This document shows, one piece after another, positions 2,839 through 41,678 of a stretch of 64,000 nucleotides of DNA. The notes below the pieces were generated by a model. It made no database searches. It saw only the letters and a list, made by a program, of their open reading frames with translations, and was not told the origin of the DNA. The stretch lies in IMG/VR virus record IMGVR_UViG_3300027899_000001, positions 334,373 through 398,372 of that record; one strand, 5' to 3'. Each line of letters opens with the position of its first letter. The first letter of the stretch is position 1. Source of the stretch: a virus. The translations under genes and the position numbers were made by a program.

Positions 2839-2853
2839 TTTTAATTTATATAT

Positions 2854-3440: not shown

Positions 3441-3475
3441 CTTATATGGTTATATTAAAATTTATTTATGTTCTT

Positions 3476-3521
3476 AGAGAGTAAATATAATAAAATTTTT
3501 TGATATAAAAAAATATTTTAT
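3476..3521 (-). promoter_or_regulatory. conserved promoter-like motif, copy 2
   Basis: gagagtaaatataataaaattttttgatataaaaaaatatttt, about 40 nt upstream of the ATG at 3440. Confidence 0.5.
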
Positions 3522-3530
3522 CAATTATTT

Positions 3531-3731
3531 TTATTCTTCTTTTATATAAGCGTTTTTTACTTTAACGTTTTTCTTTACAGCATTTATAAACTGCCATGGA
3601 TTTTCAATTCCATAAATTTCTTTTCTATAATTATTATCATATATTATGACTACACAATATGTAACAGGTTTAAGAGGCACATACCCATTAAAAAAGGATT
3701 TTGGATTATATGATTTAAAAAAATCACTCAT
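3531..3731 (-). CDS. hypothetical protein
   Basis: 66 aa ORF, ATGA-overlapped with the downstream gene. Confidence 0.4.
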   Translation of the reverse strand: MSDFFKSYNPKSFFNGYVPLKPVTYCVVIIYDNNYRKEIYGIENPWQFINAVKKNVKVKNAYIKEE

Positions 3732-4069
3732 TTATGTACTTTAAATCCTTTATCTTTTAGTAGTGCTTGTATACCAGATCTATACCAACTAAACGCAGTT
3801 TGAGGATTACCTTTAACTGTAATATATTTTGTAATAAAATCTCCTATTTTTTGATCATATTTATGAGGAAACCAGTTATCAGCAGATCTTATTATATCTT
3901 CAGGAATTTCACGTGTTTCTAAGATTTGATGTAAATGATCTACTATCCATTTATCTAATTCTAACCAAGTATTAAAATCGCGATGTACATAAAGTCCAAT
4001 TCCCATATCTTCTATAGGATCCGATTCTTCTTTAAATACTTCATTTATATTTTCTCTAACTAATTTCAT
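3728..4069 (-). CDS. EKF/DMGIG-leader family protein
   Basis: N-terminus MKLVRENINEVFKEESDPIEDMGIG. Confidence 0.7.
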   Translation of the reverse strand: MKLVRENINEVFKEESDPIEDMGIGLYVHRDFNTWLELDKWIVDHLHQILETREIPEDIIRSADNWFPHKYDQKIGDFITKYITVKGNPQTAFSWYRSGIQALLKDKGFKVHK

Positions 4070-4890
4070 TCGTAAAAAGGCATTTTAACTTTACAAATCT
4101 TTCTAATTTTCGCTTCAGTAATTCCATAATGCATAGACATACAAACAGTTCCATCTATTCTTTTTGGAAATCCTTTTAATGATCTTATATCGTTATCTGA
4201 TGCATTAAAATCTTCTTTTACATATTCAGGAAATCCTATGCATGATTGTATAGTTCCTGGAACACAAAAATTTCCATACACATGGTGAAATTTAATATAT
4301 TCAGGAAGTTTTTTATATTTTGGATAAGTATTTCTAACACAATATAAATTTACTTGACCTTGTACTGTAATGCTTAAATCTTTATTTATAGTATAATCAA
4401 TAATATTCATTTCTTTAAGCCAATCTTTAATCTTTTTAATGATTCCTATACCCATGTCTTGAATAGGATCAGTATCTTCAGCAAATTTTTCATTAACTGA
4501 TTCATTTATTTTTAATACATCAAAATATTCGTCCCAAACTTCTATAGGGGCAGATCCATATGTATAATAATATCCTCCCGAATCTATATACCTTCTTGCT
4601 GTTATAGCGTTCTGCACATTATCTCCAAAATTAATTATTACTAAACTTAAAATATTTTTTTCTTTGTTTACTTCTTTAACTATACTAGTATTGCCTTTAC
4701 GAATTCTTGCGGTGACCTTTTCAATATTTTCGTCAAAAATAATATCATTGTTTTTTTGATATAAATCTTGTTTAACTATAATTATATCTCCTTTCTTTAT
4801 TCTCGTAAATTTAGATCCAATACCTAAATCCCATATGGGATCAGTTCCTTGTTCAAATTTTTCATTTATATGTTCTTTTACTATTTTCAT
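4066..4890 (-). CDS. EKF/DMGIG-leader family protein with two tandem modules
   Basis: N-terminus MKIVKEHINEKFEQGTDPIWDLGIG and a second internal copy VLKINESVNEKFAEDTDPIQDMGIG near residue 127; ATGA overlap with 3728..4069. Confidence 0.7.
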   Translation of the reverse strand: MKIVKEHINEKFEQGTDPIWDLGIGSKFTRIKKGDIIIVKQDLYQKNNDIIFDENIEKVTARIRKGNTSIVKEVNKEKNILSLVIINFGDNVQNAITARRYIDSGGYYYTYGSAPIEVWDEYFDVLKINESVNEKFAEDTDPIQDMGIGIIKKIKDWLKEMNIIDYTINKDLSITVQGQVNLYCVRNTYPKYKKLPEYIKFHHVYGNFCVPGTIQSCIGFPEYVKEDFNASDNDIRSLKGFPKRIDGTVCMSMHYGITEAKIRKICKVKMPFYE

Positions 4891-5570: not shown

Positions 5571-6146
5571 ATGATTAAAGAAGAAAAACATCATTATGTA
5601 TATTTAACTACTAATCTTATCAATGGTAAACAATATATTGGTGATAGAACATGTAAATGTAATCCTGAAAATGATAAGTATTTAGGAAGTGGCAGACCAT
5701 ATTTTCAAAATGCTATTAAAGAATATGGAAAAAATAATTTTAGCAAACAAATACTTGAATGTTTTAATACAAGAGAAGAAGCTTTTAATGCCCAAGAAAA
5801 ATATATTATACAATATAATACGCTTATTCCTAATGGATATAATATAAGTCCTAAAGGTGGCCATAATGTTAAAGAATGTTGGAGCAAAGAATCTAAAGAA
5901 AAATGCAGTAACACTAAAAAAGGAAAAATTGGATATTGGAAAAATAAAAAATTATCAGAAGAACATATTAAACATTTAAAAGAAAATCATAAAGGAATGT
6001 TAGGAAAATATCATTCAGATGATTCTAAATTACAACTTAGTAATTCAATGAAAATCAAAAATAACGGAAAAGAAACAGAAGAACATAAACAAAAAATAAA
6101 ATTAAGTATGCAAAATTATTGGGCAAAAAAGAAATTAGTGCATTAA
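5571..6146 (+). CDS. GIY-YIG homing endonuclease (Seg/I-TevI-like)
   Basis: N-terminus HYVYLTTNLINGKQYIGD matches GIY-YIG; the basic C-terminal repeats (GKIGYWKNKKLSEEHIKHLKENHKG) resemble NUMOD DNA-binding modules; it is on the opposite strand to its neighbours. Confidence 0.8.
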   Translation: MIKEEKHHYVYLTTNLINGKQYIGDRTCKCNPENDKYLGSGRPYFQNAIKEYGKNNFSKQILECFNTREEAFNAQEKYIIQYNTLIPNGYNISPKGGHNVKECWSKESKEKCSNTKKGKIGYWKNKKLSEEHIKHLKENHKGMLGKYHSDDSKLQLSNSMKIKNNGKETEEHKQKIKLSMQNYWAKKKLVH

Positions 6147-6150
6147 TTTT

Positions 6151-6363
6151 CTATCTTGTAATTGCAACATCTCCAGTAGAACTTATAACTACAACATAAT
6201 GTGTATTATTCATATCTAGTTGATAAACTGAAGCTTTTCCATCTAACGTTGTAACTTTATAAGAAGATTGCGGGGGTGCTACAACTTTAGTTGCAGCAAA
6301 TACAGTTATAGCAAAAAGTAAAACAAGTGTTACTAAAACAATAATAAATTTTGGAGTTTTCAT
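6151..6363 (-). CDS. small secreted protein
   Basis: N-terminal signal peptide MKTPKFIIVLVTLVLLFAITVFAAT. Confidence 0.45.
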   Translation of the reverse strand: MKTPKFIIVLVTLVLLFAITVFAATKVVAPPQSSYKVTTLDGKASVYQLDMNNTHYVVVISSTGDVAITR

Positions 6364-6364
6364 G

Positions 6365-7579
6365 TTATTTTATATTAAGTTGATATTTACAAAATTCTAT
6401 CATTTTTTCATCTCCTGTATGTTTTCCTTCTGAATCAGACAATTTAATACAAGGTACCCATTCATCGTCAGGATCAGGTTTTGCTGCAATTAGTTTAATA
6501 ACCATATTAAGTGGGTTAACTCCAACATCATTAGATAAATTTGTGCCTATTCCCATTGCGCATTTAATTTCTTTATTACATGATTTTGTTAATTCAATTG
6601 CAAGATCAGGATTAAGATTATCTGAAAAAATTATAGTTTTATCATTGGGGTCAATTCCCATACTTTGATAATGTTTAATAACTTTTTCTGCAAAATGAAA
6701 TGGATTTCCACTATCATGTCTTACACCATCAAAAAGCTTTGAGAATTTTTTTCCAAATGATTTAAAGAATGATTCTGTTGTAAATGTATCTGTAAGAGCA
6801 ATTCCAAGATCACCTTGATAAACATTTGACCAGTTTTCAAGAGCTAAAAAATTTGCTTGTTTAAATCCATATTTTGCAGCATGAAACATAAACCATTCAT
6901 GTGCATGAGTTCCTATTGGAGTAAGATTAAACATATGAGCAAAGTGTACATTAGAAGTTCCATTAAAATTATCTCTCATACTAAATGCTAAATCTTCTAC
7001 AACTTCTTTTTGATTTTCATATGAATATCTTCTACGAGTTCCAAATTCAGAAATCTTAACTCCATGATTATTAAATAATGCAGCTTTTTTTAGATTATTT
7101 TGTTCTCTTTCTACTCTTGAATTTATTTTTTCTCCCGTCATTTTAAAATACAATTCAGATATAAGAGCAAGAAGTGGAACTTCCCAAAGAATTGTACGAT
7201 ACCAGTAGCCTTCTACAGTTACTTGAAGTTCACTTCCATTTTGTATAACTCCAACTTCTGAAGGATTATATCTATATCCTGCCAAAAAATCAAAATACGC
7301 AGGATCGATATATTTACATTTAGTTTCAAAGAAGTGTTTTTCTGCAGTCAAAAGTTTAAGAGAAGACATATGAGAAATTTGTAATCTTAGTTCTTCTGCA
7401 AATCCTTCTGGAAAATTTACTTTTGAACGAACTATTAATGCATATTTAACTTTTGCTCTTGGAAAAAGTTTTAACACTGCATTCATCATACTAAATTTAT
7501 AAAGATCGTTATCGAGTATTGATGTAATTATAGGTTCCATTTTATATTTTTTTAGCATGAAAATAAGTGACTCCATCAA
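6365..7579 (-). CDS. pncB: nicotinate phosphoribosyltransferase
   Basis: N-terminus TSILDNDLYKFSMMNAV and GTHAHEW are characteristic of PncB; about 404 aa. Confidence 0.85.
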   Translation of the reverse strand: MMESLIFMLKKYKMEPIITSILDNDLYKFSMMNAVLKLFPRAKVKYALIVRSKVNFPEGFAEELRLQISHMSSLKLLTAEKHFFETKCKYIDPAYFDFLAGYRYNPSEVGVIQNGSELQVTVEGYWYRTILWEVPLLALISELYFKMTGEKINSRVEREQNNLKKAALFNNHGVKISEFGTRRRYSYENQKEVVEDLAFSMRDNFNGTSNVHFAHMFNLTPIGTHAHEWFMFHAAKYGFKQANFLALENWSNVYQGDLGIALTDTFTTESFFKSFGKKFSKLFDGVRHDSGNPFHFAEKVIKHYQSMGIDPNDKTIIFSDNLNPDLAIELTKSCNKEIKCAMGIGTNLSNDVGVNPLNMVIKLIAAKPDPDDEWVPCIKLSDSEGKHTGDEKMIEFCKYQLNIK

Positions 7580-8009
7580 TTTCTGTCATATCAAGAATTT
7601 TAAATTGATATGCACTAAATAATGCTGTTACAATTCTTGGTGTTAACGATCTATCAATTTTATTATCTAATAAATTAAATATAACATCTATAAGCTTTCC
7701 ATATAATATATGAGTTTTTAAACTCAACATAGGTTTACTTGCTATAAATTTTCCATATACATAAGTATTCTTTTTTAAAAGATTATTAAAATCTTTAATA
7801 GTATCGTCTAAATATTTAATTTCATTTAATTTTTTAAGATGAACAAGCGTTTTAATTCCTTTTAGTTCATCTTTATCATAGAAATAAAAATGTTTTCCCG
7901 AAAGAAATAAAACTTTTTCATCTTTAACTTTTTTATGTTTTTGCACATATGCATGCATAACATGATCATATGTTTCATCTTTATATTGAATATCATTAAA
8001 ACTTTTCAT
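7542..8009 (-). CDS. hypothetical protein
   Basis: 155 aa ORF in the operon. Confidence 0.4.
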   Translation of the reverse strand: MKSFNDIQYKDETYDHVMHAYVQKHKKVKDEKVLFLSGKHFYFYDKDELKGIKTLVHLKKLNEIKYLDDTIKDFNNLLKKNTYVYGKFIASKPMLSLKTHILYGKLIDVIFNLLDNKIDRSLTPRIVTALFSAYQFKILDMTEIDGVTYFHAKKI

Positions 8010-8011
8010 TA

Positions 8012-8377
8012 TTATCTTATTCTAAATGTATCAAAAAATGTTCTAAACGATAGTCTTTTTTTCAAAATTATTGTTTCAGATACGTATTGAGTATCATTTT
8101 CATAATATTTTGTTCCTTTAGGAATTATGAATTTAAATACAGTTAAGTAAGAATGAGCATCATCTGCCGCAATTTTAAAACTTTTATATGAATGATAGCC
8201 TATGTTAATAGAAACTTGATCATAATAAAAAGTAGCATCAAATTCTACTTTTTTATTTAAAAGATTTTTAGTATATTGAAAATCTGTAAACCAAGATATT
8301 CCTCTTCTAGTCATAGTTTTATAACAAACTATATCTTTTTTTGCTGTTTTAAGAACATTTTTTCCAGTAAAACACAT
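8012..8377 (-). CDS. hypothetical protein
   Basis: 121 aa ORF. Confidence 0.4.
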   Translation of the reverse strand: MCFTGKNVLKTAKKDIVCYKTMTRRGISWFTDFQYTKNLLNKKVEFDATFYYDQVSINIGYHSYKSFKIAADDAHSYLTVFKFIIPKGTKYYENDTQYVSETIILKKRLSFRTFFDTFRIR

Positions 8378-8388
8378 ATTTTTAATTT

Positions 8389-9293
8389 TTAAAAGATTAG
8401 ACTTCCTTCATCATCCCAACGACAATATAATTTACTATTTTCTCTTAAGATAACATATTTAAGAGATTCGTTATTGCCTTTAGACATACAATCATCATCA
8501 ATAACAACTGACATTCCATTTATAGAATAAACTTTTGCACCAAACGGAAGAGTATAAAGAAATTCACCATTTCCCGCCTTTTTAGGAAACATTCTCTCAG
8601 TTCCTATATATGCATTTTCTCCTGTAATATATTTCTTAATAGCACTTATAGTTTCGTCTTTACATGCATTTTCTTTAACCCATTCACCTTCGTCATTTAT
8701 AATAAATCCATCTTTATCTAACTCATAATATATTTTTCTAAAAGTAACTTGATTTGCACCAAGAAATTTACATCTAGCTATAATTTCTTTTGGAGTATGA
8801 TTATCATATTCTTTTAACATATTAAGACTTAAACGAATATTAAATCCTCGTGATTTAAGTAAAGAAATTAATTCTGATAAGTTAAATTTTAATTTTTTAG
8901 AAACTCCAATTATATTTAAATTATTTTCATCAGAAAAAATATCAGCAACAGAAAGACTTATCGTATTTACTTGAAGTTTTTGTAATAATCAATATTATCA
9001 TCATCTAATAATACTCCAGTAGTTTGTAACTCAACATTAGGAAATGGATAATTTAAATCTTTAAATAAAACAGATAAAACTTTTAAGAAATTTGTATTTT
9101 GCAAAGCTTCTCCTGTTCCTGTAAGAATACAAGTATTTACTCCATTCATTACAGCATACTTAATACGTTTTTCTATTTGAATATACATAAAAGTATCTTC
9201 ATATGGAGAATCATGCATTCTACTTACACAAAATGGACATTTATTTACACAACTTTTTGTAGGAACTACGATAGAAATTGTCTAAATGTTCAT
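8389..9293 (-). pseudogene. radical-SAM-like gene interrupted by an in-frame TAG (codon 4) and a -1 frame change at an AAAAAAC site; either a pseudogene or a recoded gene
   Basis: From the ATG at 9291-9293 the reading is ATG AAC ATT TAG ACA.. TKSCVNKCPFCVS (CxxxCxxC) ..LTGTGEAL (GGE-like) up to the stop at 8967. The -1 frame is open from 8991 and runs into ORF 8389..8820 with no start codon. The overlap contains TAC AAA AAC. Confidence 0.5.
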
Positions 9294-9307
9294 ATATTAA
9301 TTATTAT

Positions 9308-9350
9308 TGTGTAAATATAATACTAATTTCTGAATTAAAAAAATATTTTG
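9308..9350 (-). promoter_or_regulatory. conserved promoter-like motif, copy 3
   Basis: tgtgtaaatataatactaatttctgaattaaaaaaatatttt, 17 nt upstream of the ATG at 9293. Confidence 0.5.
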
Positions 9351-9359
9351 CTATTTATT

Positions 9360-10010
9360 TTAAATATTTCCTATAAAAGAAAGTGTAAGAGAATCTACAT
9401 AATAAACTTTAGCTTGTGTAAAAGCTTCTATAGTTTCTGACAAATCTGAATTTATTGATTTACACGCATCTTCAATAACATATGTATTAAAACCTTCCAT
9501 TGCTGCATCTATTGCAGTTTCTTTCACACAATAATCTAGAGCTAAACCACATACGTAAACTTCAACTACATTTCTTTCATTAAGAAAATCTTGAAGTTTT
9601 TTAGGAGCATCTGGATTTATTATTTTTGATCTATCAAATGCACTATAAACATGATTATTCCTTTCCATGCCTTTTTTAAAGATATAAAAATCTTTTTTGC
9701 ATTTTGATAAATTCAGATCTGGATGAAATGAAGCACCTAATGTATCTGCTACACAATGATCAGGCCAAAGAATATCTTTTTCTCCATTTTCTCTTACGTA
9801 ACTATCGTAAACAGAAGCTCCGGGATGTTGTGAGGCGAAAGCATCCATTTCTGGATCATGCCAATCTTGTGTAAATATAACTAAATCAAATCTTTCAAGG
9901 AGATCATTAACTACGGGTACAATTTTGTCTCCATCTGGTACTGCTAGTGATCCTCCAGGGCAAAAATCTCTTTGCAAATCGATCACTATTAATGCTTTTT
10001 TCTTTATCAT
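9360..10010 (-). CDS. pncA: nicotinamidase (isochorismatase family)
   Basis: VIDLQRDFCPGGSLAV matches the PncA N-terminal motif; about 216 aa. Confidence 0.8.
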   Translation of the reverse strand: MIKKKALIVIDLQRDFCPGGSLAVPDGDKIVPVVNDLLERFDLVIFTQDWHDPEMDAFASQHPGASVYDSYVRENGEKDILWPDHCVADTLGASFHPDLNLSKCKKDFYIFKKGMERNNHVYSAFDRSKIINPDAPKKLQDFLNERNVVEVYVCGLALDYCVKETAIDAAMEGFNTYVIEDACKSINSDLSETIEAFTQAKVYYVDSLTLSFIGNI

Positions 10011-10011
10011 A

Positions 10012-10170
10012 TCATCTTATAGTTTGAATTTCATATTCATCATATCCATCTCTTGATTCATCTGAATCTATACATACAATTTCTAATCCAAATGATTGTA
10101 AAGCGTCTGATATATTGTCTACAATTTCATCAGCTCTATCATCATAATCTACTCTAAATTTTGATTTCAT
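10012..10170 (-). CDS. small acidic ORF (52 aa) translationally coupled between nadE and pncA
   Basis: ATG at 10168-10170 overlaps the nadE stop (ATGA) and its own TGA overlaps the pncA ATG (ATGA); it is below the ORF-track size cutoff. Confidence 0.4.
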   Translation of the reverse strand: MKSKFRVDYDDRADEIVDNISDALQSFGLEIVCIDSDESRDGYDEYEIQTIR

Positions 10171-11102
10171 AATTCTTCCTTTTTATTTTTAACATATCTA
10201 TTGTATATACTATTTTCATTTTCTATTATATCGTGTCTATATATATTGACAGGATTATTTCTTTTGAATTGAGATTTTAAATGTCGTTGAATGACAGAGT
10301 GTTGACGCATTTTATTAATTTCATCCATATATACTGCATTAACAGTTGGTGAATGTTTTTCAATAAAGTCTAAATATTCTTTAAGTATTCTATCAACTTC
10401 TTTATAACCATCTCTAGAATTTCCTGTCCAGTCTGGCATTATTTGTCCAAGATCTCCAAGATTTGTAACTCCAAGGCCATCAGTTGCAAGTGCAGTTATC
10501 GTATTTATTATTGTACTTCCTGCTTCATAATTTCCAGCATATTCATTCATAGTTAACCATTCTGCCATATCATATACTTCTGTTTTCCAAAGATTTTGTA
10601 TCATACCATAATCACCTACATCACCATGAAGAGTCCAAAAACCAAGAAGAAATTCTGTATAATTATCAGTAGAAAGAACTATTCCACGATGATATGAAGC
10701 TAAATCATACAAATAAATCATACGCAGTCTTGCTTTAAGATTTCCATTACGTATACGACTTGATGAACCTTCAGGATTAGGCGCATGAAACAGCATATTA
10801 GATTCCATTTTGGAATACATAAAATTATATTCTTCTTCAACGCTATGCTCTAAGAATTTTGTACAAAATACTTTTCCTGTTAATTTGGCTCTTTCTAATT
10901 CTTCTGGTTGATTTGAACTTACTGGCAAACTTCTTCCTATAAGTGGAATATTTAATTCATCACAAACTGGTCTAGCAAGTGCTGCGCAAAGACAACTATC
11001 TATTCCACCTGAAATCCCTATAATAAGAGACTTTATATTATTGTTTGTAATATACAGACTTAATTCTTTTCGAATATTCGATACTGCTATTTGATAATTC
11101 AT
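10167..11102 (-). CDS. nadE: NH3-dependent NAD+ synthetase
   Basis: PP-loop GISGGIDS ATP-pyrophosphatase motif; about 311 aa. Confidence 0.8.
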   Translation of the reverse strand: MNYQIAVSNIRKELSLYITNNNIKSLIIGISGGIDSCLCAALARPVCDELNIPLIGRSLPVSSNQPEELERAKLTGKVFCTKFLEHSVEEEYNFMYSKMESNMLFHAPNPEGSSSRIRNGNLKARLRMIYLYDLASYHRGIVLSTDNYTEFLLGFWTLHGDVGDYGMIQNLWKTEVYDMAEWLTMNEYAGNYEAGSTIINTITALATDGLGVTNLGDLGQIMPDWTGNSRDGYKEVDRILKEYLDFIEKHSPTVNAVYMDEINKMRQHSVIQRHLKSQFKRNNPVNIYRHDIIENENSIYNRYVKNKKEEL

Positions 11103-11110
11103 ATTATTTT

Positions 11111-11344
11111 TTATTTACGTATTATCCAAAATAATAACCAAAGTATAGTCGTGGGTATCCAAATTGCCCAAGTAAATATTGAAAATTTTTCACTATTTTT
11201 TGCCCAACATAAAAATGTTAAAATAGCAGAAGTAGCACTCATTAAAAATAATACACCTGGATAAATAGGGATAAAAAGATTTCCTACTATTAAAATTACA
11301 GTAGTAATTATTAAAGCCATTGTGAAATTTTCAAAAATTTTCAT
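11111..11344 (-). CDS. small membrane protein (two TM helices)
   Basis: Hydrophobic 77 aa protein. Confidence 0.4.
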   Translation of the reverse strand: MKIFENFTMALIITTVILIVGNLFIPIYPGVLFLMSATSAILTFLCWAKNSEKFSIFTWAIWIPTTILWLLFWIIRK

Positions 11345-11371
11345 ATTTATTTGTGTTTAATTATTAAAAAA

Positions 11372-11875
11372 TTATAAATCATTTTCTTTGTGTTTACACC
11401 AAGTTAGATATTCATCTTGATCTCTTATCCATTGTAATAATTCTGGATCAGTAACTTGTTCATGTTCTATTTTAGACCATAATTCGTTATCTCTTTCATT
11501 TTTATCATATTGATTAACGAAATATATTTTCTTAATTCCCGCTGCTATTATATTTTTCAAACATTCACTGCAAGGTTCAAGTATACAATAAAGTTCTGCT
11601 TCTTCAATAGCAATTCCATGTTTGGCTGCAAAATTAATAGCATTCATTTCAGCATGAACCTCATATTTTTTAGACCAATTATGATGGGCTTCTCTATCAG
11701 TTAGAAAATTATAATTAGGAAAATGATCACAACAATTTTCAAATCCTTTAGGTGTCCCATTTATTCCCGTGGAAATAATTCTTCTATCATGAACAATAAG
11801 AGCTCCCACTTGTCTTGAGACACATTTAGATTCTTGTCCAAGTAAATATGCTGTTTTAAGAAAGAAATGTTTCAT
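11372..11875 (-). CDS. dCMP deaminase (cytidine/deoxycytidylate deaminase zinc-binding)
   Basis: HAE...PCxxC motif (HAEMNAI...EPCSECLKNI). Confidence 0.8.
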   Translation of the reverse strand: MKHFFLKTAYLLGQESKCVSRQVGALIVHDRRIISTGINGTPKGFENCCDHFPNYNFLTDREAHHNWSKKYEVHAEMNAINFAAKHGIAIEEAELYCILEPCSECLKNIIAAGIKKIYFVNQYDKNERDNELWSKIEHEQVTDPELLQWIRDQDEYLTWCKHKENDL

Positions 11876-12123
11876 TTGAATTCTGCTTCTAAATTTCTTA
11901 AATGTTCATTAGTATATTCGTATTCTATTTTATCTTCATAATCATAAAGATATATTTTATCTTTACATACTTTTGTTATTTTACACTTAAAATTTTTCCA
12001 AGAATAACAATTATATAAATTATCTACAACTCCTGACCAATTATATTTTTTACCTTCAACTAGTTGAAAACCATCATGAGTTACAAATATCTTTTTGGGT
12101 TTTTTCTTAAATGGATTTTTCAT
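11872..12123 (-). CDS. hypothetical protein
   Basis: 83 aa ORF. Confidence 0.4.
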   Translation of the reverse strand: MKNPFKKKPKKIFVTHDGFQLVEGKKYNWSGVVDNLYNCYSWKNFKCKITKVCKDKIYLYDYEDKIEYEYTNEHLRNLEAEFK

Positions 12124-12323
12124 GGTCTTAAGCTTTTTTGTTCATTTTCTTCTCCATCGCCATCCATTAAAGTAGCAATCATGTTAATAGATTCAAGAAT
12201 AGATTGTCTTAACATTTTAATCCAAGTTTCATAATCCTCTACTTTTGTGATATTAGGACGAATTGTTACGTTTTTTAGATTTTCACAAACAGTTTTAAGC
12301 ACTTTCTTTTCTAACTTTTCCAT
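12120..12323 (-). CDS. hypothetical protein
   Basis: 67 aa ORF. Confidence 0.4.
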   Translation of the reverse strand: MEKLEKKVLKTVCENLKNVTIRPNITKVEDYETWIKMLRQSILESINMIATLMDGDGEENEQKSLRP

Positions 12324-12395
12324 ATTGTTATTTGTTTATTATAATGCTAATATATAAAAAATATGAATACGATGTGATTTTTTGTTGTTAATTTT

Positions 12396-12437
12396 TTGTT
12401 AAAAAAGCAAAAGGGAGAATTTCTTCTCCCTTTCTAT
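12396..12437 (-). terminator. rho-independent terminator downstream of rsr
   Basis: AAGGGAGAAgaaatTCTCCCTT followed by a T-run in minus-strand sense. Confidence 0.55.
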
Positions 12438-12441
12438 TCTA

Positions 12442-14145
12442 TTAGATTTCAATCTTGTTGATTTCATCTATGATTACCTGTGGGTTTATTTCAACCTGAG
12501 GAATCTTTTCGTAGATGTCTTGACCGTAGCCGTAAAGACGGAATACTCTGTTTCCACCCTTTATAGGAGCAGTTGCTGCATATCCGCATACGTTGATGAT
12601 GTATACGTATGGTGTTCCGAACTTCTTGCAGTATCCTGCATAAGAATTTTCTACATTGCTGTATCCATCCTGTTCGTCAGAGATGATAAGAATTCTATCG
12701 TACTGCTTGTTAGTTCTTTCAAACAACTTGAAGCAAGAACCGAAATCTGTACCGTGACCGCAACATCCGTTGTAGGACATGAACTTCTGCTTTAACGTAT
12801 TGATTGAATCGATTGGGTTCCAACCTACAATCTGTTCAGCAGTAGAAGCGAAATGGTATACATCTCCACCAACACCCTTTGCAAATGTTGCAGCTACAAG
12901 TGCAGCCTTGTCAGCTGGCTTCTTATTGATAGCCTTCTTAGGGTCACCATTAAGATAAATGCTGGAGTATCCACCTTTCATAGAACCTGATGTATCGAAT
13001 ACAACTGCTGTTCTACCTTCTGGAAGCAAGTTCTGAAGGTTTGGAATTGACAATTCATATGCTGTTGAAAGTGCCTTTGCAACCTTAGCCAACTGTGTTC
13101 CGTTGAATTCAAGTGTCATCACTTCAAGAGCAATGTCAATCTGGTGTGGCCATACAAGAGACTTACGGATGAATTCCTTTTCAACAAGTAAATCGCACGC
13201 CTTGTCAAGAAGAACAGTATCATTGGTCTTAAGAATGTTACGTACGTTACGAAGTAATGCAAGGTACCCAATCTTCTTAGTTTCAATAAGTTCCTTGTAG
13301 TTTTCAGTCTTAGCTTCATTAAGTTCAACAGTTGCCTGTTCCTTAGTGATAGTTCCAGCCTTAACCTTTTCAGCTACAACCTTTCCTGCTTCAGTATTCT
13401 TATCTTCAACAGTGTTGAACTGCTTAAGAACGCCAAGAACAAGAGCCTTAAGAGTTGGAAGACCAACATTACCATTTTCAGGTGCATCTAAAAGATATTC
13501 ATCCTTTTCGAACTTAGTACCCTTAACAGCCTTCAAGTATTCAGCTTCTGATACAAATACTGTTCCATTTATAGGTGTTTCATGTGGGTGCACTAAGTTA
13601 ACGATGTCAACAAGGCTTACACCACGTGACTTCATCTGGTACTTAGCTAACTGATATGCATCTGCATGTTCAATTGCATCCTTGAATCCCTTCTTAATAG
13701 CGTTTGGAATTGGTGCTTCTACACCATTCTTAGCCTGGTAACATGCAAGAATTTCTGCCATGTCATCAAGACGATAAACGATACCTCCACGATTTTCCTT
13801 ACGGTCTCTCTTAGAGAAGAATCTCTTAGCGATTTCAGAACCTGCAAGGTGAGGGATTAATTCTACTGCACCGTAATGAGTAACAGAACGCTGTCCAAAT
13901 ACTGTACGTGCATAGATAAGTGCCTTAGCTGCGAATAATGCATTCTTCTGCGCAACTCTATTGATAACTTCACGGAATCTCTTTTCACGTTCAGTTTCCT
14001 TTTCGTAATAAGTATTATCTAAACCAGTAGATAAAATACCAATTAATTCATGTTCTGGCTTCTGTGTTAAACCAGTTCCACCCTGTAAAGTTACAGTTTC
14101 CTTAACTTCTGGGTTGCTTACTCTCTTTTCATTGTACTTTGACAT
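12442..14145 (-). CDS. rsr: Ro60-like TROVE-domain protein with C-terminal vWA domain
   Basis: TROVE-like N-terminal region; vWA MIDAS motif VVFDTSGSM; GC content clearly higher than its surroundings; strong Shine-Dalgarno AAAGGAGGT 7 nt upstream of the ATG, unlike the neighbouring genes. Confidence 0.7.
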   Translation of the reverse strand: MSKYNEKRVSNPEVKETVTLQGGTGLTQKPEHELIGILSTGLDNTYYEKETEREKRFREVINRVAQKNALFAAKALIYARTVFGQRSVTHYGAVELIPHLAGSEIAKRFFSKRDRKENRGGIVYRLDDMAEILACYQAKNGVEAPIPNAIKKGFKDAIEHADAYQLAKYQMKSRGVSLVDIVNLVHPHETPINGTVFVSEAEYLKAVKGTKFEKDEYLLDAPENGNVGLPTLKALVLGVLKQFNTVEDKNTEAGKVVAEKVKAGTITKEQATVELNEAKTENYKELIETKKIGYLALLRNVRNILKTNDTVLLDKACDLLVEKEFIRKSLVWPHQIDIALEVMTLEFNGTQLAKVAKALSTAYELSIPNLQNLLPEGRTAVVFDTSGSMKGGYSSIYLNGDPKKAINKKPADKAALVAATFAKGVGGDVYHFASTAEQIVGWNPIDSINTLKQKFMSYNGCCGHGTDFGSCFKLFERTNKQYDRILIISDEQDGYSNVENSYAGYCKKFGTPYVYIINVCGYAATAPIKGGNRVFRLYGYGQDIYEKIPQVEINPQVIIDEINKIEI

Positions 14146-14189
14146 AGTGTACCTCCTTTTTTTACTATTAGTTTATACTAAAGAATTAA

Positions 14190-14420
14190 TTAACATATTA
14201 CTATAAAATGTTTTCTGTTTTCATTATCTTCACACTTAACAGGCATGAATCTTTTATCTTCATAATCTTCTCTTGCAACTTGCATCCAACCATTTTCGGT
14301 TCCTGCTGGATTGTCTCTATTTGCTACCTCAAGTATTTCTTCATCAGTAGCGTCCCATTCTGCGCAAACTTGCATATAACATATGCCTATCATCGGCTGT
14401 GAAACTATTACTCTTTCCAT
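14190..14420 (-). CDS. hypothetical acidic protein
   Basis: 76 aa ORF. Confidence 0.4.
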   Translation of the reverse strand: MERVIVSQPMIGICYMQVCAEWDATDEEILEVANRDNPAGTENGWMQVAREDYEDKRFMPVKCEDNENRKHFIVIC

Positions 14421-14439
14421 ATTAAATTTTATTAAAAAT

Positions 14440-14480
14440 AAAAAAGCCTGAGTAATTTTTTACGATTTCTCAGGCTTTGC
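14440..14480 (-). terminator. rho-independent terminator (GCCTGAG..CTCAGGC followed by TTTTTTATTTTT) about 25 nt upstream of the ATG at 14420
   Basis: aaaaaagcctgagtaattttttacgatttctcaggc; the T-run is on the minus strand. Confidence 0.5.
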
Positions 14481-14686
14481 AATATAATCATAAAGTTCAA
14501 GTTATGAGCTATGCAAATAAAAGTTGAGAAATCTGAGAAGAGTTTAAATTGAAAATTCTAATAAAGATCGTTCGATGTAACTCTTTCTCTTACTACAATC
14601 AATTATATTATTATATATAAAGTCAAAAACTCTTTGTTTTTAGACTTAGTGTTAAAATTTTGTTAAAGATTTATTTATTAAAATTA

Positions 14687-14728
14687 TAGTGTAAATATAA
14701 TAAAAATTCTTGACAGAAAAAACTTTTT
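14687..14728 (-). promoter_or_regulatory. conserved promoter-like motif, copy 4
   Basis: tagtgtaaatataataaaaattcttgacagaaaaaacttttt; it lies about 210 nt upstream of the terminator at 14440-14480. Confidence 0.45.
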
Positions 14729-14742
14729 ATGTTAAAATTTTG

Positions 14743-15336
14743 TTAAAATAATGAAATATTTTTGGTACGATGTAATAATCCATATATTATAAATGCATGA
14801 CCCATCTTTTTATTTGGATCTGTAATAACATCCATAAGAGATTTATTCATCTTAACATGATTGTATCCATCAAAATCTATCAAATAAATATCTCGTTTTT
14901 CAGTTTTATATAATTCTAAAAGTTGCTTATATGCTTCGCTTTGTAATAAAGCTCTTTTATAAATAGGAATGTAAATTTTAATTCTTGCTTGAATATATGA
15001 TAATTTTTCTCCATCCCAATAACTATATAAAGGTTTTGCATCTCTACCCATAGGATATCTGTGAGCAAAATTATCATTCCATATTTTTTCAGCCCATTCA
15101 AAATATGCTGGAGAAGGATCGCCTTTTTCATCTACAAATTCTTTATATACCTTTGATGCTTGCCAGGCGTTTTCTACATTCTTTGCATAATATCCTTTAT
15201 ACAAATGCCCGCCCGGAAGAACAAAAGGAGATAAACCTTGAGTCCAATTTCCTGAACCTGCTCTTGAAGTTGTATTAATTACTACTGCGCCCTCAGGTAT
15301 CTCATACCTTTTAGCGTATGATTCTACGTATAACAT
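14743..15336 (-). CDS. NADAR/YbiA-like (DUF1768) domain protein; candidate ADP-ribose-processing or DNA ADP-ribosyl hydrolase
   Basis: SPFVLPGGHLYKGYYAKNVENAWQASKV resembles the NADAR core (SPF...G..Y...E.A.QA.K). Confidence 0.45.
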   Translation of the reverse strand: MLYVESYAKRYEIPEGAVVINTTSRAGSGNWTQGLSPFVLPGGHLYKGYYAKNVENAWQASKVYKEFVDEKGDPSPAYFEWAEKIWNDNFAHRYPMGRDAKPLYSYWDGEKLSYIQARIKIYIPIYKRALLQSEAYKQLLELYKTEKRDIYLIDFDGYNHVKMNKSLMDVITDPNKKMGHAFIIYGLLHRTKNISLF

Positions 15337-15376
15337 AGTGTAAATATAATAAAAAATTCTGAATTGAAAATATTTA
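15337..15376 (-). promoter_or_regulatory. conserved promoter-like motif, copy 5, directly abutting the ATG
   Basis: atagtgtaaatataataaaaaattctgaattgaaaatattt; only 3-4 nt separate the motif from the ATG at 15336, which suggests a leaderless mRNA. Confidence 0.5.
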
Positions 15377-15527
15377 TGTGTTAAAATTTTGTTAAAATGA
15401 TGAAACTAAACTTTATAGTTAATATATAAATTATATAACCTTGTACTTGGGGGTTTAGTGTTTGAAAGAACATTCGAGTTGGAGAAATACCAACGAATAA
15501 ATTCTCAAATATAAAATAACATAAGGA

Positions 15528-16397
15528 ATGAAAATAAATTACTCAACTCAAAGGGTAACTGTGCCCACTGTATACGTGACCAAAGGTCGCCAAAGAGTAA
15601 AACAGTATGATAACACAATCTATCTTAAAAATGGAGACGAATTCGAAATAGAATTATTCAATCCATTACAATCTAAAGTTTTAGCGAAAATTGAACTCAA
15701 CGGAAAGTATCTTGGTGCTGGAATAGTTTTACGTCCAGGTGAAAGAATGTTTCTTGAAAGATACATCGAAGAGTCCAGAAAATTCATGTTTCAAACATAT
15801 GAAGTTGATGGTGGTGATACTAATGTTCAAGAAGCTATTAAACTTAATGGAGTATTAGAGGTTAAATTTTATAAAGAAACTGCACCTTCACAACCATATT
15901 ACAGAAGTTCTACTATAACTTACACAACCAATCCAAGTTGGACAGTAACACCTACTTATACACATTATAATACAACAATAGGATATTCTGGTGTAAAAAG
16001 TTCAAAAGGAGACATAGAAAATCCTGGTGTTGTTTTTGGTAATGCTACTACTTTATCATGTTCTGTGGATAATACAAAATCATATGTAGATAGTATGCCC
16101 ATTGGAGGTGAAGGATTAGGATTTGCGGGATGCGCTGATTTTTCAAGAGACTTTGCTCCACAAGAACAAACAATAGAAACTGGAAGAGTAGAAAAAGGTT
16201 CAAAATCAGATCAAGAATTTTCTACAGATAATACGCAATTTGATGTTTATTATAGTTGGAGAAGTGTTTGGAAAATTCTTCCAGAATCTCAAAAGCCACT
16301 TATGTCTGAAGACTTAAAAGTATTTTGTACAAATTGTGGAGCTAAAAGAAAAAAATCTTCTCATAAATTTTGCCCAAACTGTGGCAACCAATTTTAA
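15528..16397 (+). CDS. hypothetical protein with C-terminal zinc ribbon
   Basis: C-terminus CTNCGAKRKKSSHKFCPNCGNQF. Confidence 0.45.
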   Translation: MKINYSTQRVTVPTVYVTKGRQRVKQYDNTIYLKNGDEFEIELFNPLQSKVLAKIELNGKYLGAGIVLRPGERMFLERYIEESRKFMFQTYEVDGGDTNVQEAIKLNGVLEVKFYKETAPSQPYYRSSTITYTTNPSWTVTPTYTHYNTTIGYSGVKSSKGDIENPGVVFGNATTLSCSVDNTKSYVDSMPIGGEGLGFAGCADFSRDFAPQEQTIETGRVEKGSKSDQEFSTDNTQFDVYYSWRSVWKILPESQKPLMSEDLKVFCTNCGAKRKKSSHKFCPNCGNQF

Positions 16398-27836: not shown

Positions 27837-27839
27837 AAT

Positions 27840-41081: not shown

Positions 41082-41678
41082 TTACTGTTTTTTATATAAA
41101 ATATTAAATTTTTCTAATGCCATTTTAATTCTCTTATCATGTTCAAACGCCCATTCATATTTATCAATATCTTCAACCGGAATCCAATGCACCATATCTA
41201 CTTCTTCACTGATAAATTGTTCAATATCTCTTGGAAGTAATTTTTGTGCAAGCGTAAAATCAAAAGCTAAACAATAATTTAATGCTATATTTTGACGGCA
41301 TTCTTTAGATTCTGTTTCAACATAAAAAGGTTCTTTATTATTTGTAAATGCAAGATATTTTGAATAATCTTCAATAAGAAATGAGGTTTCTTCATATAGC
41401 TCTCTTCGTACTGCATCCCAGCCATTTTCATTCCAGTCTATGTATCCTCCTGGAGCTACCCATTTTCCAGGTTCGTCTCTTATTATTTCAGATCTTTTTT
41501 CTCCAAGAACATGCACGCCATCACTAAATTCACCAAATACTATCGCTACTACTGCAACTGAACGAGATTCCCAAACTTCTCTTTTCTTAAAGAATTTTGA
41601 AAGTATCCAATAAATCCATTTTGGAAAAATAAAAACAAAATGGCAAGAGTTTAATTTATTAGTAAATATCGGTATCAT
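41082..41678 (-). CDS. Nudix hydrolase
   Basis: Nudix box GGYIDWNENGWDAVRRELYEETS. Confidence 0.7.
   Translation of the reverse strand: MIPIFTNKLNSCHFVFIFPKWIYWILSKFFKKREVWESRSVAVVAIVFGEFSDGVHVLGEKRSEIIRDEPGKWVAPGGYIDWNENGWDAVRRELYEETSFLIEDYSKYLAFTNNKEPFYVETESKECRQNIALNYCLAFDFTLAQKLLPRDIEQFISEEVDMVHWIPVEDIDKYEWAFEHDKRIKMALEKFNILYKKQ

What the first reader, a model, noticed from the sequence alone, without database searches (positions are those of the whole stretch)
6365..15336. Complete Preiss-Handler NAD salvage operon (pncA, coupled small ORF, nadE, pncB) with a NADAR-like gene nearby
Nicotinamidase, nicotinate phosphoribosyltransferase and NAD synthetase are translationally coupled in one minus-strand operon, together with dCMP deaminase. 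A NADAR/YbiA-like gene lies 4 kb away (14743..15336) and a Nudix hydrolase is at 41082..41678. Phage-borne NAD reconstitution has recently been recognised as a counter to NAD-depleting abortive-infection systems, and NADAR domains reverse DarT-type DNA ADP-ribosylation. This particular PncA-PncB-NadE arrangement plus NADAR looks like an NAD/ADP-ribose counter-defence island. No NadD (NaMN adenylyltransferase) is visible in the window, so it is either elsewhere or supplied by the host.
Basis: partly seen in the sequence, partly recalled or inferred. Interest (0 to 1): 0.6.

Follow-up and report, generated by a model that had tools for sequence, protein, structure and literature searches.

The report
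Jumbo-phage NAD salvage gene cluster
A giant phage that probably infects Bacteroidota encodes three of the four enzymes that turn nicotinamide back into NAD+, close to an enzyme with the fold of those that strip ADP-ribose from DNA. The genes are real, but this kind of phage NAD island has already been described, so it is a new example and not a new system.

Summary
PncB (6365-7540), PncA (9360-10010), an NH3-type NadE (10167-11102) and a dCMP deaminase (11372-11875) pass family HMMs and keep their active-site motifs.

The 'NADAR-like' gene (14743-15336) belongs to Pfam DUF6939, not Pfam NADAR. Its high-confidence model matches solved NADARs best, and it keeps the catalytic Glu-x6-Lys.

Two claims fail:
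- The pathway is not complete. No NaMN/NMN adenylyltransferase lies in the window or in about 10 kb past its low-coordinate end.
- Only nadE, the 52-aa ORF and pncA are tightly coupled. pncB lies 1.8 kb downstream, past a decayed radical-SAM gene and two unknown ORFs.

The source is a 378-405 kb phage contig. The module TROVE...NADAR...dCMP deaminase-NadE-PncA-(radical SAM)-PncB recurs in several related contigs, always without an adenylyltransferase in the 5-10 kb of flank recovered. DUF6939 also sits beside NAMPT and NMNAT-Nudix in another phage clade.

Preiss-Handler clusters in Bacteroidota jumbo phages, and their proposed role against NAD-depleting defences, were published in 2024. Phage NADARs that counter DarT1 are also known.

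Verdict: a genuine NAD salvage and ADP-ribose island, and a new member of a known kind. The counter-defence role is untested.

The parts
11372..11875 (-). dCMP deaminase (zinc CDA fold), first recognisable enzyme gene of the co-directional run
   Evidence: PF00383 matches at 3.7e-22 and ComEB TIGR02571 at 2.9e-27. It lies next to NadE in all close relatives and is fused in frame to NadE in L006/L007.
11111..11344 (-). 77-aa hydrophobic ORF between the deaminase and nadE, function unknown
   Evidence: ORF list. No Pfam or PHROG hit. No tblastn match in any related locus.
10167..11102 (-). NadE, a single-domain (NH3-type) NAD synthetase with a diverged C-terminal third
   Evidence: PF02540 matches at 3.1e-35 and TIGR00552 scores 110 bits against a cutoff of 64. 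SGGIDS is at residues 31-36. The best solved structure is 3FIU, E=4e-16, aligned over residues 20-185 only. A large metagenomic subfamily is 50-72% identical over the full length.
10012..10170 (-). 52-aa acidic ORF, overlapping the nadE stop (ATGA) and ending 1 nt before the pncA start
   Evidence: No family hit. Not conserved: relatives have zero, two or three unrelated small ORFs here.
9360..10010 (-). PncA nicotinamidase
   Evidence: PF00857 matches at 6.5e-26, NF008623 scores 157 bits, and 2WT9 nicotinamidase matches at 1.3e-44. D11, K113, C161, D49/H51 and H85 are all present.
8389..9293 (-). Radical-SAM gene, probably a pseudogene in this genome
   Evidence: The ATG is at 9293. An in-frame TAG at 9284-9282 sits where relative L004 has Gln. 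CxxxCxxC is present. A frameshift at the A5 run 8977-8981 splits the gene into ORFs 8967-9218 and 8389-8820. The gene is intact (294-308 aa) in L004, L101 and L103.
8012..8377 (-). 121-aa ORF of unknown function
   Evidence: Matches only phrog_13450, unknown function, E=1e-9.
7542..8009 (-). 155-aa ORF of unknown function, ending 1 nt before the pncB ATG
   Evidence: no significant family. No (H/T)xGH motif.
6365..7540 (-). PncB nicotinate phosphoribosyltransferase
   Evidence: NF003704 scores 470 bits (cutoff 379) and TIGR01514 427 bits (cutoff 270). 2IM5 matches at 5e-109, with GTHAHEW aligned to GTHPHEW. The 391-aa product starting at 7540 is the one on record in public assemblies. The closest bacterial homologues, 55-62% identical, are almost all Bacteroidota.
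6151..6363 (-). 70-aa ORF with a hydrophobic N-terminus, last gene of the run before a convergent GIY-YIG endonuclease gene
12409..12434 (-). Terminator-like hairpin (11 pairs plus a T run) just downstream of the TROVE gene, separating it from the NAD gene run
   Evidence: No other minus-strand terminator-like site lies between 12409 and 5052.
12442..14145 (-). TROVE (Ro60-like) plus vWA protein, a conserved neighbour of the module
   Evidence: PF05731 matches at 4.7e-9. Homologues 64-73% identical sit upstream of the NAD genes in L004, L006, L101 and L103.
14743..15336 (-). DUF6939 protein with a NADAR (YbiA) fold, a probable ADP-ribose glycohydrolase
41082..41678 (-). Nudix hydrolase, about 30 kb away and not part of the cluster
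   Evidence: PF00293 matches at 6.7e-14. It is 31% identical (E=5e-18) to the Nudix that follows NadD in the gut-phage cluster of MT835470. The specific substrate is not established.

Best explanation
This is a conserved NAD+ salvage module of a jumbo phage that probably infects Bacteroidota.

Proposed route:
1. PncA deamidates nicotinamide to nicotinate.
2. PncB converts nicotinate and PRPP to NaMN.
3. An adenylyltransferase that the module does not encode makes NaAD. This would be the host's NadD, or a phage gene elsewhere in the ~380-kb genome.
4. The phage's NH3-dependent NadE amidates NaAD to NAD+.

The module lets the phage keep or rebuild the NAD+ pool during infection from nicotinamide, which is the product left behind by NADase defences. 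The nearby DUF6939 protein is a NADAR-fold hydrolase. It most likely removes ADP-ribose from a nucleic-acid base or a related ADP-ribose adduct, as phage AdfN and DarG1 do.

Shown: the enzyme family assignments, the active-site motifs, the conserved gene order and the absence of an adenylyltransferase from the module. Inferred: the flux through the pathway, the reliance on host NadD, the counter-defence benefit and the substrate of DUF6939.
For: - Family HMMs and solved-structure matches support PncB, PncA and NadE. The catalytic and metal-binding residues are present.
- The genes are tightly spaced, and no terminator-like site lies on the minus strand between 12409 and 5052.
- The order dCMP deaminase-NadE-PncA-(radical SAM)-PncB is conserved in L004/5, L006/7, L101 and L103 at 40-73% identity.
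- A PnuC transporter is inserted between PncA and PncB in L006.
- NadE-PncA adjacency is kept even in the more distant contigs L008 and L009.
- Complete versions of the pathway exist in other phages. MT835470 has PncA-PncB-NadE-NadD-Nudix. Phosso has NadE-PncB-Nudix-NMNAT-hydrolase.
- DUF6939 has the NADAR fold and the Glu/Lys dyad. It recurs in islands with NAMPT, NMNAT-Nudix and an ADP-ribosylglycohydrolase.
- An AdfN-type NADAR (PF08010) sits in the same island in relatives.
- Literature: NARP1 and NARP2 are counter-defences (10.1101/2024.02.11.579819), as is NARP3 (PMC13464706). Preiss-Handler clusters occur in Bacteroidota jumbo phages (PMC11662467). AdfN counters DarTG1 (PMC11825919).
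Against: - No adenylyltransferase lies in the 64-kb window or in about 10 kb past its low-coordinate end, so the pathway cannot run on phage genes alone as far as seen.
- Nothing here shows expression, activity or any effect on defence systems.
- PncA scores just below the NCBIfam equivalog cutoff (157 against 174 bits).
- Only the N-terminal 60% of NadE aligns to solved NadEs, so its substrate (NaAD or NaMN) is open.
- A gene in the middle of the run is decayed, and DUF6939 is in a different transcription unit.
- Two of the five DUF6939 contexts sampled are not NAD-related, and the three NAD-related ones are syntenic with each other, so they count as one clade.
Confidence: 0.6

Rival explanations
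1. The module is a general auxiliary metabolic module. It raises the NAD+ supply for a very large phage's replication and for its NAD-consuming enzymes, or complements a host that lacks nicotinamide or nicotinate salvage. It has no specific relation to anti-phage defence.
For: Li et al. 2024 report that phage NAD pathways often complement the host's and co-occur with many NAD-consuming phage enzymes (PMC11662467). NARP2-type pathways make excess NAD+ even without any defence system (10.1101/2024.02.11.579819). The module sits among nucleotide-metabolism and RNA-repair genes: dCMP deaminase, thioredoxin and TROVE.
Against: The pathway starts from nicotinamide, the product of NADase effectors. 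NADAR-type enzymes with a known counter-defence role are repeatedly co-located with it. All three experimentally studied phage NAD pathways act as counter-defences. The two readings are not mutually exclusive.
Confidence: 0.3
2. The route is Francisella-like. The phage NadE amidates NaMN to NMN (an NMN synthetase), and an NMN adenylyltransferase (NadM or NadR) encoded elsewhere in the phage finishes NAD+. Host NadD would then not be needed.
For: The best solved-structure match of NadE is 3FIU; identifying 3FIU as the Francisella tularensis enzyme with NMN synthetase activity rests on my own knowledge. The C-terminal third, which in canonical NadE helps bind the adenylyl part of NaAD, is diverged. 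Relative L006 carries a PnuC (NR/NMN-type) transporter inside the module. NadD is consistently absent from the module.
Against: 3FIU leads the other NadEs by only 3 bits (62.4 against 59.1). No NMNAT was found in the window. tblastn with two phage adenylyltransferases found none in the closest GenBank relative, LR756500. Substrate preference cannot be read from sequence here.
Confidence: 0.12
3. The main role is nicotinamide removal. PncA and PncB clear nicotinamide, a product inhibitor of sirtuins and ADP-ribosyltransferases, so that phage or host NAD-consuming enzymes keep working. NAD+ resynthesis is secondary.
For: That nicotinamide inhibits these enzyme classes is established knowledge. 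The NadE-PncA pair persists without a nearby PncB in L008 and L009.
Against: No ADP-ribosyltransferase or sirtuin was detected in the window. The conserved presence of PncB and NadE points to full recycling rather than mere removal.
Confidence: 0.05
4. The genes are recently captured host genes, juxtaposed by chance, with no selected function in the phage.
For: PncB is 55-62% identical to Bacteroidota PncBs. One gene in the run is decaying.
Against: The order is conserved across several phage lineages at 40-73% identity, and all catalytic motifs are intact. GC content over 6-12 kb is 27-28%, within the range of the rest of the window. NadE belongs to a large subfamily whose members lie almost entirely on unnamed metagenomic contigs, several of them long.
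Confidence: 0.03

Closest known systems
'NAD-jumbo phages' with Preiss-Handler gene clusters (Li et al., Microbiome 2024, PMC11662467)
   Same: Both are jumbo phage genomes with predicted Bacteroidota hosts and clustered pncB and nadE. That paper also mentions pncA and proposes a role against NAD+ depletion.
   Different: Their example cluster (Kuafu_71) is pncB-nadD-nadE, and the class is defined by a complete pathway. Here nadD is absent from the module and from the window plus about 10 kb of flank. pncA and a NADAR-fold gene are part of the neighbourhood. Neither case has been tested experimentally.
Human-gut phage contig MT835470 (GenBank, unannotated)
   Same: It carries PncA, PncB (43% identical) and NadE (35% identical) in one co-directional cluster. 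Its Nudix is 31% identical to the window's Nudix.
   Different: There the cluster is contiguous and complete: PncA, a 98-aa ORF, PncB, NadE, two ORFs, NadD (GSFDPPHIGH) and Nudix. Here NadD is missing, the Nudix is about 30 kb away and the gene order differs.
Cultured jumbo phages Sinorhizobium phage Phosso and Agrobacterium phage Atu_ph07
   Same: Both have annotated nicotinate phosphoribosyltransferase and NH3-dependent NAD synthetase. In Phosso these cluster with a Nudix, an NMNAT and a PncA-like hydrolase.
   Different: The relationship is distant (28-30% identity). The hosts are Alphaproteobacteria. An NMNAT is encoded next to the other genes.
NARP1 (Adps+Namat), NARP2 (Nampt+Nmnat, KVP40) and NARP3 (PnuC+NadR)
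   Same: All are phage-encoded routes that rebuild NAD+ and overcome NAD-depleting defences. Like NARP2, the module here starts from nicotinamide and PRPP.
   Different: The chemistry differs. The route here goes through the deamidated intermediates nicotinate, NaMN and NaAD. It needs four steps, one of which the module does not encode. None of the NARP signature genes is in the window. It has not been validated experimentally.
Phage NADARs: AdfN (T4 gp30.3) and the DarG1 antitoxin NADAR
   Same: The window protein shares the YbiA/NADAR fold, the LS(N/P)F motif and the catalytic Glu-x6-Lys. The best structural match is the Geobacter lovleyi DarT1-associated NADAR.
   Different: It belongs to a different Pfam family (DUF6939, not PF08719, PF08010 or PF22397) and is only 16% identical to the solved NADARs. 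Its third catalytic position is probably Asp, as in the BC4488/DarT1-linked type, rather than the His of gp30.3. Its activity and substrate are untested.

Membership tests
Preiss-Handler pathway, complete (with nicotinamide entry) | Nicotinamidase PncA (nicotinamide to nicotinate) | tested here: met
   The best matches are solved nicotinamidases. The Asp/Lys/Cys triad and the Asp/His/His metal site are present.
Preiss-Handler pathway, complete (with nicotinamide entry) | Nicotinate phosphoribosyltransferase PncB | tested here: met
   the equivalog TIGR01514 scores above its cutoff; 2IM5 matches at E=5e-109.
Preiss-Handler pathway, complete (with nicotinamide entry) | NaMN adenylyltransferase (NadD, or NadM/NadR type) | tested here: not met
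   There is no (H/T)xGH motif in any ORF of 50 aa or more, nor in six-frame pattern scans. There is no PF01467 hit among about 82 ORFs. None lies in about 10 kb past the low-coordinate end, nor in the 5-10 kb of flank recovered for relatives. The rest of the ~380-kb genome could not be read.
Preiss-Handler pathway, complete (with nicotinamide entry) | NAD synthetase NadE | tested here: met
   It is single-domain with no glutaminase domain, so it is the NH3-dependent type.
'NAD-jumbo phage' as defined by Li et al. 2024 | Phage genome larger than 200 kb | tested here: met
   Identical genes lie on a 378,433-bp ENA contig and a 405,016-bp contig. The content is phage-like: 19 tRNAs, homing endonucleases and giant structural ORFs.
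'NAD-jumbo phage' as defined by Li et al. 2024 | At least one complete NAD+ synthesis pathway encoded by the phage | tested here: inconclusive
   Three of four steps were found.
NADAR superfamily | [quoted passage not shown] | tested here: met
NADAR superfamily | Catalytic Glu and Lys seven residues apart (E36/K43 in AdfN-T4), preceded by an LSNF-type motif | tested here: met
   S36-P37-F38, E55 and K62 are invariant in 49 homologues. The Glu-Lys spacing matches gp30.3 and YbiA, and the motif-to-Glu distance is one residue longer.
NADAR superfamily | Charged or His residue in the last strand (Glu in YbiA, Asp in BC4488, His in gp30.3) | tested here: inconclusive
   D154 and D156 are invariant at the end of the last strand, 150-154. 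No residue-level structural superposition was available to show equivalence.
NADAR superfamily | Match to a NADAR sequence model (PF08719, PF22397 or PF08010) | tested here: not met
   Only PF22075 DUF6939 is significant. PF22397 matches at E=0.11, below threshold. hhalign against one gp30.3 sequence was not significant.
NADAR superfamily | Hydrolysis of ADP-ribose from guanine in DNA | not testable with these tools
   This needs a biochemical assay.
NARP1, NARP2 and NARP3 | Signature gene pairs: Adps+Namat, Nampt+Nmnat, PnuC+NadR | tested here: not met
   None of PF14572, PF18127, PF01467 or PF04973 was found in the window. A PnuC does occur inside the module in relative L006.

The most novel reading that the evidence does not exclude
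The conserved PncA-PncB-NadE module, always lacking its own adenylyltransferase, could be a fourth NAD+ reconstitution route. It would be mechanistically distinct from NARP1-3 and has not been tested. It would recycle the nicotinamide released by NADase defences through the deamidated branch, borrowing only the host's essential NadD. The ammonia freed by PncA might feed the NH3-dependent NadE directly, and so might ammonia from the dCMP deaminase, which is fused to NadE in some relatives. DUF6939 would be a previously unrecognised NADAR family serving as the ADP-ribose-removing partner of phage NAD islands of several types.
Probability: 0.2. Interest if true: 0.6.

Novelty: new member of a known kind. 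Interest (0 to 1): 0.35.

Why it matters
NAD+ depletion is one of the commonest bacterial abortive-infection strategies. Three phage pathways that rebuild NAD+ have been proven so far, and none uses the Preiss-Handler branch.

A conserved, widespread module that recycles nicotinamide through nicotinate would extend that list to phages of Bacteroidota, which include dominant gut bacteria. It would also show that a phage can rely on a single essential host enzyme for one step.

Linking DUF6939 to the NADAR fold and to NAD salvage islands gives a testable function to a family of several hundred uncharacterised proteins. The concept itself is already published, so the value lies in concrete candidates for experiments rather than in a new idea.

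Tried and rejected
- **Megablast of 6000-16000 against GenBank phages.** No match, so there is no close cultured or deposited relative.
- **Exact look-up of the 404-aa PncB from the TTG start.** Not on record. The 391-aa ATG-start product is, so the start was moved to 7540.
- **Reading the rest of the ~380-kb genome to look for nadD.** Not possible. Look-ups are limited to window proteins and hits from earlier searches. The window's far end (the 2290-aa ORF) is not on record, and the low-coordinate flank showed nothing relevant.
- **tblastn of a gut-phage NadD and the Phosso NMNAT against GenBank phages.** Neither hits the closest GenBank relative, LR756500. Single-query sensitivity is low, so this is weak evidence of absence.
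- **hhalign of the DUF6939 profile against one gp30.3 sequence.** Not significant. The link to NADAR therefore rests on structure and motifs, not on sequence profiles.
- **Sequence search of DUF6939 against solved structures.** Nothing meaningful.
- **Y RNA near the TROVE gene.** Rfam found nothing at gathering thresholds or at E up to 1 over 12200-15600.
- **Sigma-70 promoter scan.** Counts were no higher than in shuffled sequence (76 against 67.6 ± 9.5), so no promoter is claimed.
- **Widespread TAG recoding.** No large ORF on the coding strand other than the radical-SAM gene needs TAG read-through. The TAG plus a frameshift is therefore read as gene decay.
- **The 52-aa 'coupled small ORF' as a pathway component.** Rejected, because it is not conserved in any relative.
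- **PHROG search of the unknown ORFs and of DUF6939.** No informative hits.

Full report
**What is in the sequence**

The window is AT-rich (about 28% GC), and almost every gene from about 48.8 kb down to 1 lies on the minus strand. Between 12323 and 6151 there is a tightly packed run of minus-strand ORFs. In order of transcription they are:
- two small ORFs
- a dCMP deaminase (11372-11875)
- a 77-aa hydrophobic ORF
- NadE (10167-11102)
- a 52-aa acidic ORF
- PncA (9360-10010)
- a broken radical-SAM gene (9293-8389)
- two unknown ORFs (8012-8377 and 7542-8009)
- PncB (6365-7540)
- a 70-aa ORF

**Enzyme assignments**

- PncB scores above the curated equivalog cutoffs. TIGR01514 gives 427 bits against 270, and NF003704 gives 470 against 379. 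It aligns end to end with the Porphyromonas gingivalis NAPRTase structure 2IM5 (E=5e-109), including the GTHAHEW segment.
- PncA matches Isochorismatase (6.5e-26) and the nicotinamidase model NF008623, at 157 bits, just under the cutoff of 174.
  - Its best solved relatives are all nicotinamidases; the top one is 2WT9, E=1e-44.
  - It keeps the catalytic residues D11, K113 and C161 and the metal ligands D49, H51 and H85.
- NadE passes TIGR00552 (110 bits against 64) and has the PP-loop SGGIDS. It has no glutaminase domain, so it is the NH3-dependent type. Only residues 20-185 align to solved NadEs, and the best is 3FIU at E=4e-16, a narrow lead.
- NadE belongs to a large metagenomic subfamily of proteins about 290 aa long that are 50-72% identical over the full length.

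**Gene organisation**

The nadE stop overlaps the start of the 52-aa ORF (ATGA), and that ORF ends 1 nt before pncA. The 155-aa ORF ends 1 nt before the ATG of pncB at 7540. The product starting at that ATG is the one on record in public assemblies, unlike the TTG-start product.

A strong terminator-like hairpin lies at 12409-12434, just after the TROVE gene. No other minus-strand terminator-like site occurs until 5052. A single transcription unit from about 12.3 kb to 6.15 kb is therefore plausible.

pncB is not coupled to pncA. They are 1.8 kb apart, and the gene between them is damaged:
- Its reading frame begins ATG AAC ATT TAG (9293-9282), where the orthologue in relative L004 reads MNIQ.
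- It shifts frame at an A5 run (8977-8981).
- The orthologues in L004, L101 and L103 are intact, at 294-308 aa.

Two lesions in one gene point to decay. The same split ORFs are called in the ENA and the Logan assemblies, but whether those derive from independent reads is not known.

**The 'NADAR-like' gene**

The 197-aa product of 14743-15336 matches Pfam DUF6939 (2.3e-10). It does not match Pfam NADAR. PF22397 NADAR-DarT1 appears only at E=0.11, and sequence search of solved structures finds nothing.

It has 694 homologues at E ≤ 0.001, and the 120 listed are 52-82% identical. A 49-sequence alignment gave an AlphaFold2 model with mean pLDDT 95.2.
- In Foldseek, YbiA is the only hit with E below 1.
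- The invariant residues include S36-P37-F38, E55 and K62.
  - This is the NADAR LSNF motif followed by the catalytic Glu and Lys seven residues apart (E36 and K43 in T4 AdfN; PMC11825919).
  - The Glu-Lys spacing matches gp30.3 and YbiA.
- D154 and D156, at the end of the last strand, are invariant. This fits the Asp-type (BC4488/DarT1-linked) NADARs described in PMC11125620, but I could not verify the equivalence by superposition.

The protein belongs to a family not annotated as NADAR.

**Nudix**

41082-41678 is a genuine Nudix protein (PF00293 6.7e-14). Its matches to specific subfamilies are only weak. It lies about 30 kb from the cluster. It is 31% identical (E=5e-18) to the Nudix that directly follows NadD in the gut-phage cluster of MT835470, which gives a modest link to NAD and ADP-ribose metabolism.

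**The missing step**

No NaMN or NMN adenylyltransferase was found:
- There is no (H/T)xGH motif in any ORF of 50 aa or more, and none in six-frame pattern scans.
- There is no CTP_transf_like hit in Pfam scans covering about 82 ORFs.
- tblastn with the Phosso NMNAT gave nothing.
- Nothing relevant lies in about 10 kb past the window's low-coordinate end.

The rest of the genome could not be read with the tools available.

**Source and host**

Identical proteins lie on a 378,433-bp ENA contig and a 405,016-bp contig. The window's coordinates run off the start of the 378-kb record, which may mean the window comes from a different or circularly permuted assembly of the same genome (my arithmetic).

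Several features mark a jumbo phage: 19 tRNA genes (one of them a CUA-anticodon suppressor), homing endonucleases and giant ORFs. Neighbouring genes with type-IX-secretion tail and PorP/SprF domains point to a Bacteroidota host. So do the PncB relatives, which are 55-62% identical and almost all from Bacteroidota.

**Comparative evidence**

Related contigs keep the same module:
- IMG/VR contigs L004/L005 and L006/L007.
- A 376-kb contig in an NCBI metagenome-assembled genome (L101).
- A 78.7-kb ENA contig (L103), whose NadE is seen in dozens of assemblies.

The shared order is TROVE, (cold-shock protein), a NADAR of the T4 gp30.3/AdfN family (PF08010; present in L004, L101 and L103), dCMP deaminase, NadE, PncA, radical SAM, PncB and PTH2. 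Protein identities to the window are 40-73%.

None has an adenylyltransferase in the 5-10 kb of flank recovered on each side.

Variations are informative:
- In L006/L007 the deaminase and NadE form one 460-aa ORF with no internal start codon.
- In L006/L007 a PnuC-type transporter lies between PncA and PncB.
- The window lacks gp30.3 but has DUF6939 on the other side of the TROVE gene. This may be a non-orthologous replacement within one island.
- More distant contigs (L008, L009) keep only NadE next to a nicotinamidase-like protein with all the motifs.

DUF6939 homologues in another phage clade (L013, L016/17 and L020, which are syntenic with each other) lie within a few genes of NMNAT-Nudix, NAMPT, an ADP-ribosylglycohydrolase and a phosphoribosyltransferase. 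Two other contexts are unrelated to NAD.

Among GenBank phages:
- PncB and NadE homologues occur in the huge metagenomic phages LR756500, LR756501 and LR756511.
- They also occur in Agrobacterium phage Atu_ph07.
- Sinorhizobium phage Phosso has the annotated cluster NadE, PncB, Nudix, NMNAT and hydrolase.
- The gut contig MT835470 has PncA, PncB, NadE, NadD and Nudix in a row.

**Literature**

- Phage NAD+ reconstitution is established for NARP1 and NARP2 (10.1101/2024.02.11.579819) and for NARP3, which is PnuC plus NadR (PMC13464706). None uses PncA, PncB or NadE.
- Li et al. 2024 (PMC11662467) found 174 gut jumbo phages encoding a complete NAD+ pathway, by the salvage or the Preiss-Handler route.
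  - They give a pncB-nadD-nadE cluster as an example and mention pncA.
  - They assign one main clade to Bacteroidota hosts and propose a role against NAD+ depletion.
  - All of this rests on annotation only.
- Phage NADARs (AdfN, which is T4 gp30.3) remove guanine ADP-ribosylation and defeat DarTG1 (PMC11825919, PMC11125620).
- A search for phage PncA or PncB in a counter-defence context returned only the Li et al. paper.

**Mechanism**

The best-supported reading is a nicotinamide-to-NAD+ salvage module. PncA, PncB and NadE are supplied by the phage. The adenylylation step is supplied by the host's NadD or by a phage gene elsewhere. The likely benefit is keeping NAD+ available during infection, including after NADase defences have split it into ADP-ribose and nicotinamide.

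The neighbouring NADAR-fold protein would deal with ADP-ribose adducts. The enzyme identities and the conservation are shown. The flux, the host dependence and the defence link are inferred.

A Francisella-like route, with NadE acting as an NMN synthetase, cannot be excluded. Ammonia hand-over from PncA or the deaminase to NadE is a speculation prompted by the tight coupling and the fusion.

**Verdict**

The kind of system is already in the literature, so this is a new member of a known kind.

The modestly new points are:
- DUF6939 as a NADAR-fold family tied to phage NAD islands.
- A conserved module that consistently lacks the adenylyltransferase.
- The deaminase-NadE fusion in relatives.

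I score interest at 0.35.

Noticed in passing
window 19554-19627 (-) and 9282-9284: A suppressor tRNA with anticodon CTA (it would read TAG; ARAGORN calls it 'Pyl') sits among 19 tRNA genes. The radical-SAM gene has an in-frame TAG at codon 4, exactly where a relative has Gln. No other large ORF on the coding strand needs TAG read-through, and TAG ends 6 of 70 ORFs of 80 aa or more.
   Followed up: partly
window 8389-9293 (-): The radical-SAM gene (CxxxCxxC at the N-terminus) is disrupted by the TAG and by a frameshift at an A5 run (8977-8981). The gene is intact and conserved between PncA and PncB in relatives L004, L101 and L103. In L101 a PP-binding (carrier-protein-like) gene precedes it. 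Its function is unknown.
   Followed up: partly
window 12442-14145 (-): A TROVE (Ro60-like) plus vWA protein lies in the window's highest-GC stretch (37% for 12-14 kb, against about 28% overall). A strong terminator hairpin follows it. It is conserved next to a cold-shock-domain gene in relatives. Rfam found no Y RNA nearby, even at E up to 1.
   Followed up: partly
L006:9494-10876 and L007:4224-5609: In one related phage, seen on two IMG/VR contigs, the dCMP deaminase and NadE are a single 460-aa ORF with no internal Met. This gene fusion hints at a functional link between a deaminase that releases ammonia and the NH3-dependent NAD synthetase.
   Followed up: partly
L006:11958-12383: A PnuC-type nicotinamide riboside/NMN transporter (PF04973, 3e-32) lies between PncA and PncB in a relative. 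It matches only the C-terminal two-thirds of the model, so the ORF may be truncated or its start miscalled.
   Followed up: no
L013:4617-11640, L016:3041-10999, L020:6637-13597: Another jumbo-phage clade has an island of NMNAT-Nudix, NAMPT, DUF6939, an ADP-ribosylglycohydrolase (PF03747) and a phosphoribosyltransferase-domain protein, with a glutathionylspermidine-synthase-like protein in L013 and L016. A UvrD helicase, PTH2 and Thg1 follow. It looks like an extended version of NARP2.
   Followed up: partly
window 2239-4890, 27438-30246, 51285-52255: At least eight paralogous ORFs share an N-terminal motif of the form M(K/R)IV(K/R)E(H/N)INEKF-x-E(E/G)SDPI-x-DMGIG, followed by unrelated C-terminal parts. 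It looks like a phage-specific multigene family with a common leader or targeting segment.
   Followed up: no
window 5571-6146 (+), 30477-31181 (+), 37928-38629 (-), 740-1432 (-), 25884-26549 (-): There are several homing-endonuclease-like and zinc-finger paralogues. They include a GIY-YIG/NUMOD3 gene convergent on the end of the NAD run, two paralogues starting MNYQKIYESII, and two 58%-identical Cys-rich proteins next to tRNA clusters.
   Followed up: no
window 38968-39438 (-), probable assignment: One ORF in the scanned set matches the HAD domain of 'Swiss Army Knife' RNA-repair proteins (PF18143, 1e-18). Together with TROVE and the tRNA arrays, this suggests an RNA-repair theme. The assignment to this particular ORF rests on its DxDGV N-terminus, not on a per-protein table.
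   Followed up: no
window 31211-33327 (-): The scans also picked up an SPFH/Band-7 domain (PF01145, 2e-27) and an NfeD-like domain, probably the 519-aa and 174-aa membrane proteins here. These are unusual cargo for a phage.
   Followed up: no
window 52318-63898 (+): The gene direction switches to the plus strand here. The stretch holds two giant ORFs (1295 aa and 2290 aa) and a collagen-repeat protein (56526-56978), presumably virion or fibre components. The 2290-aa product is not on record as an exact sequence.
   Followed up: no
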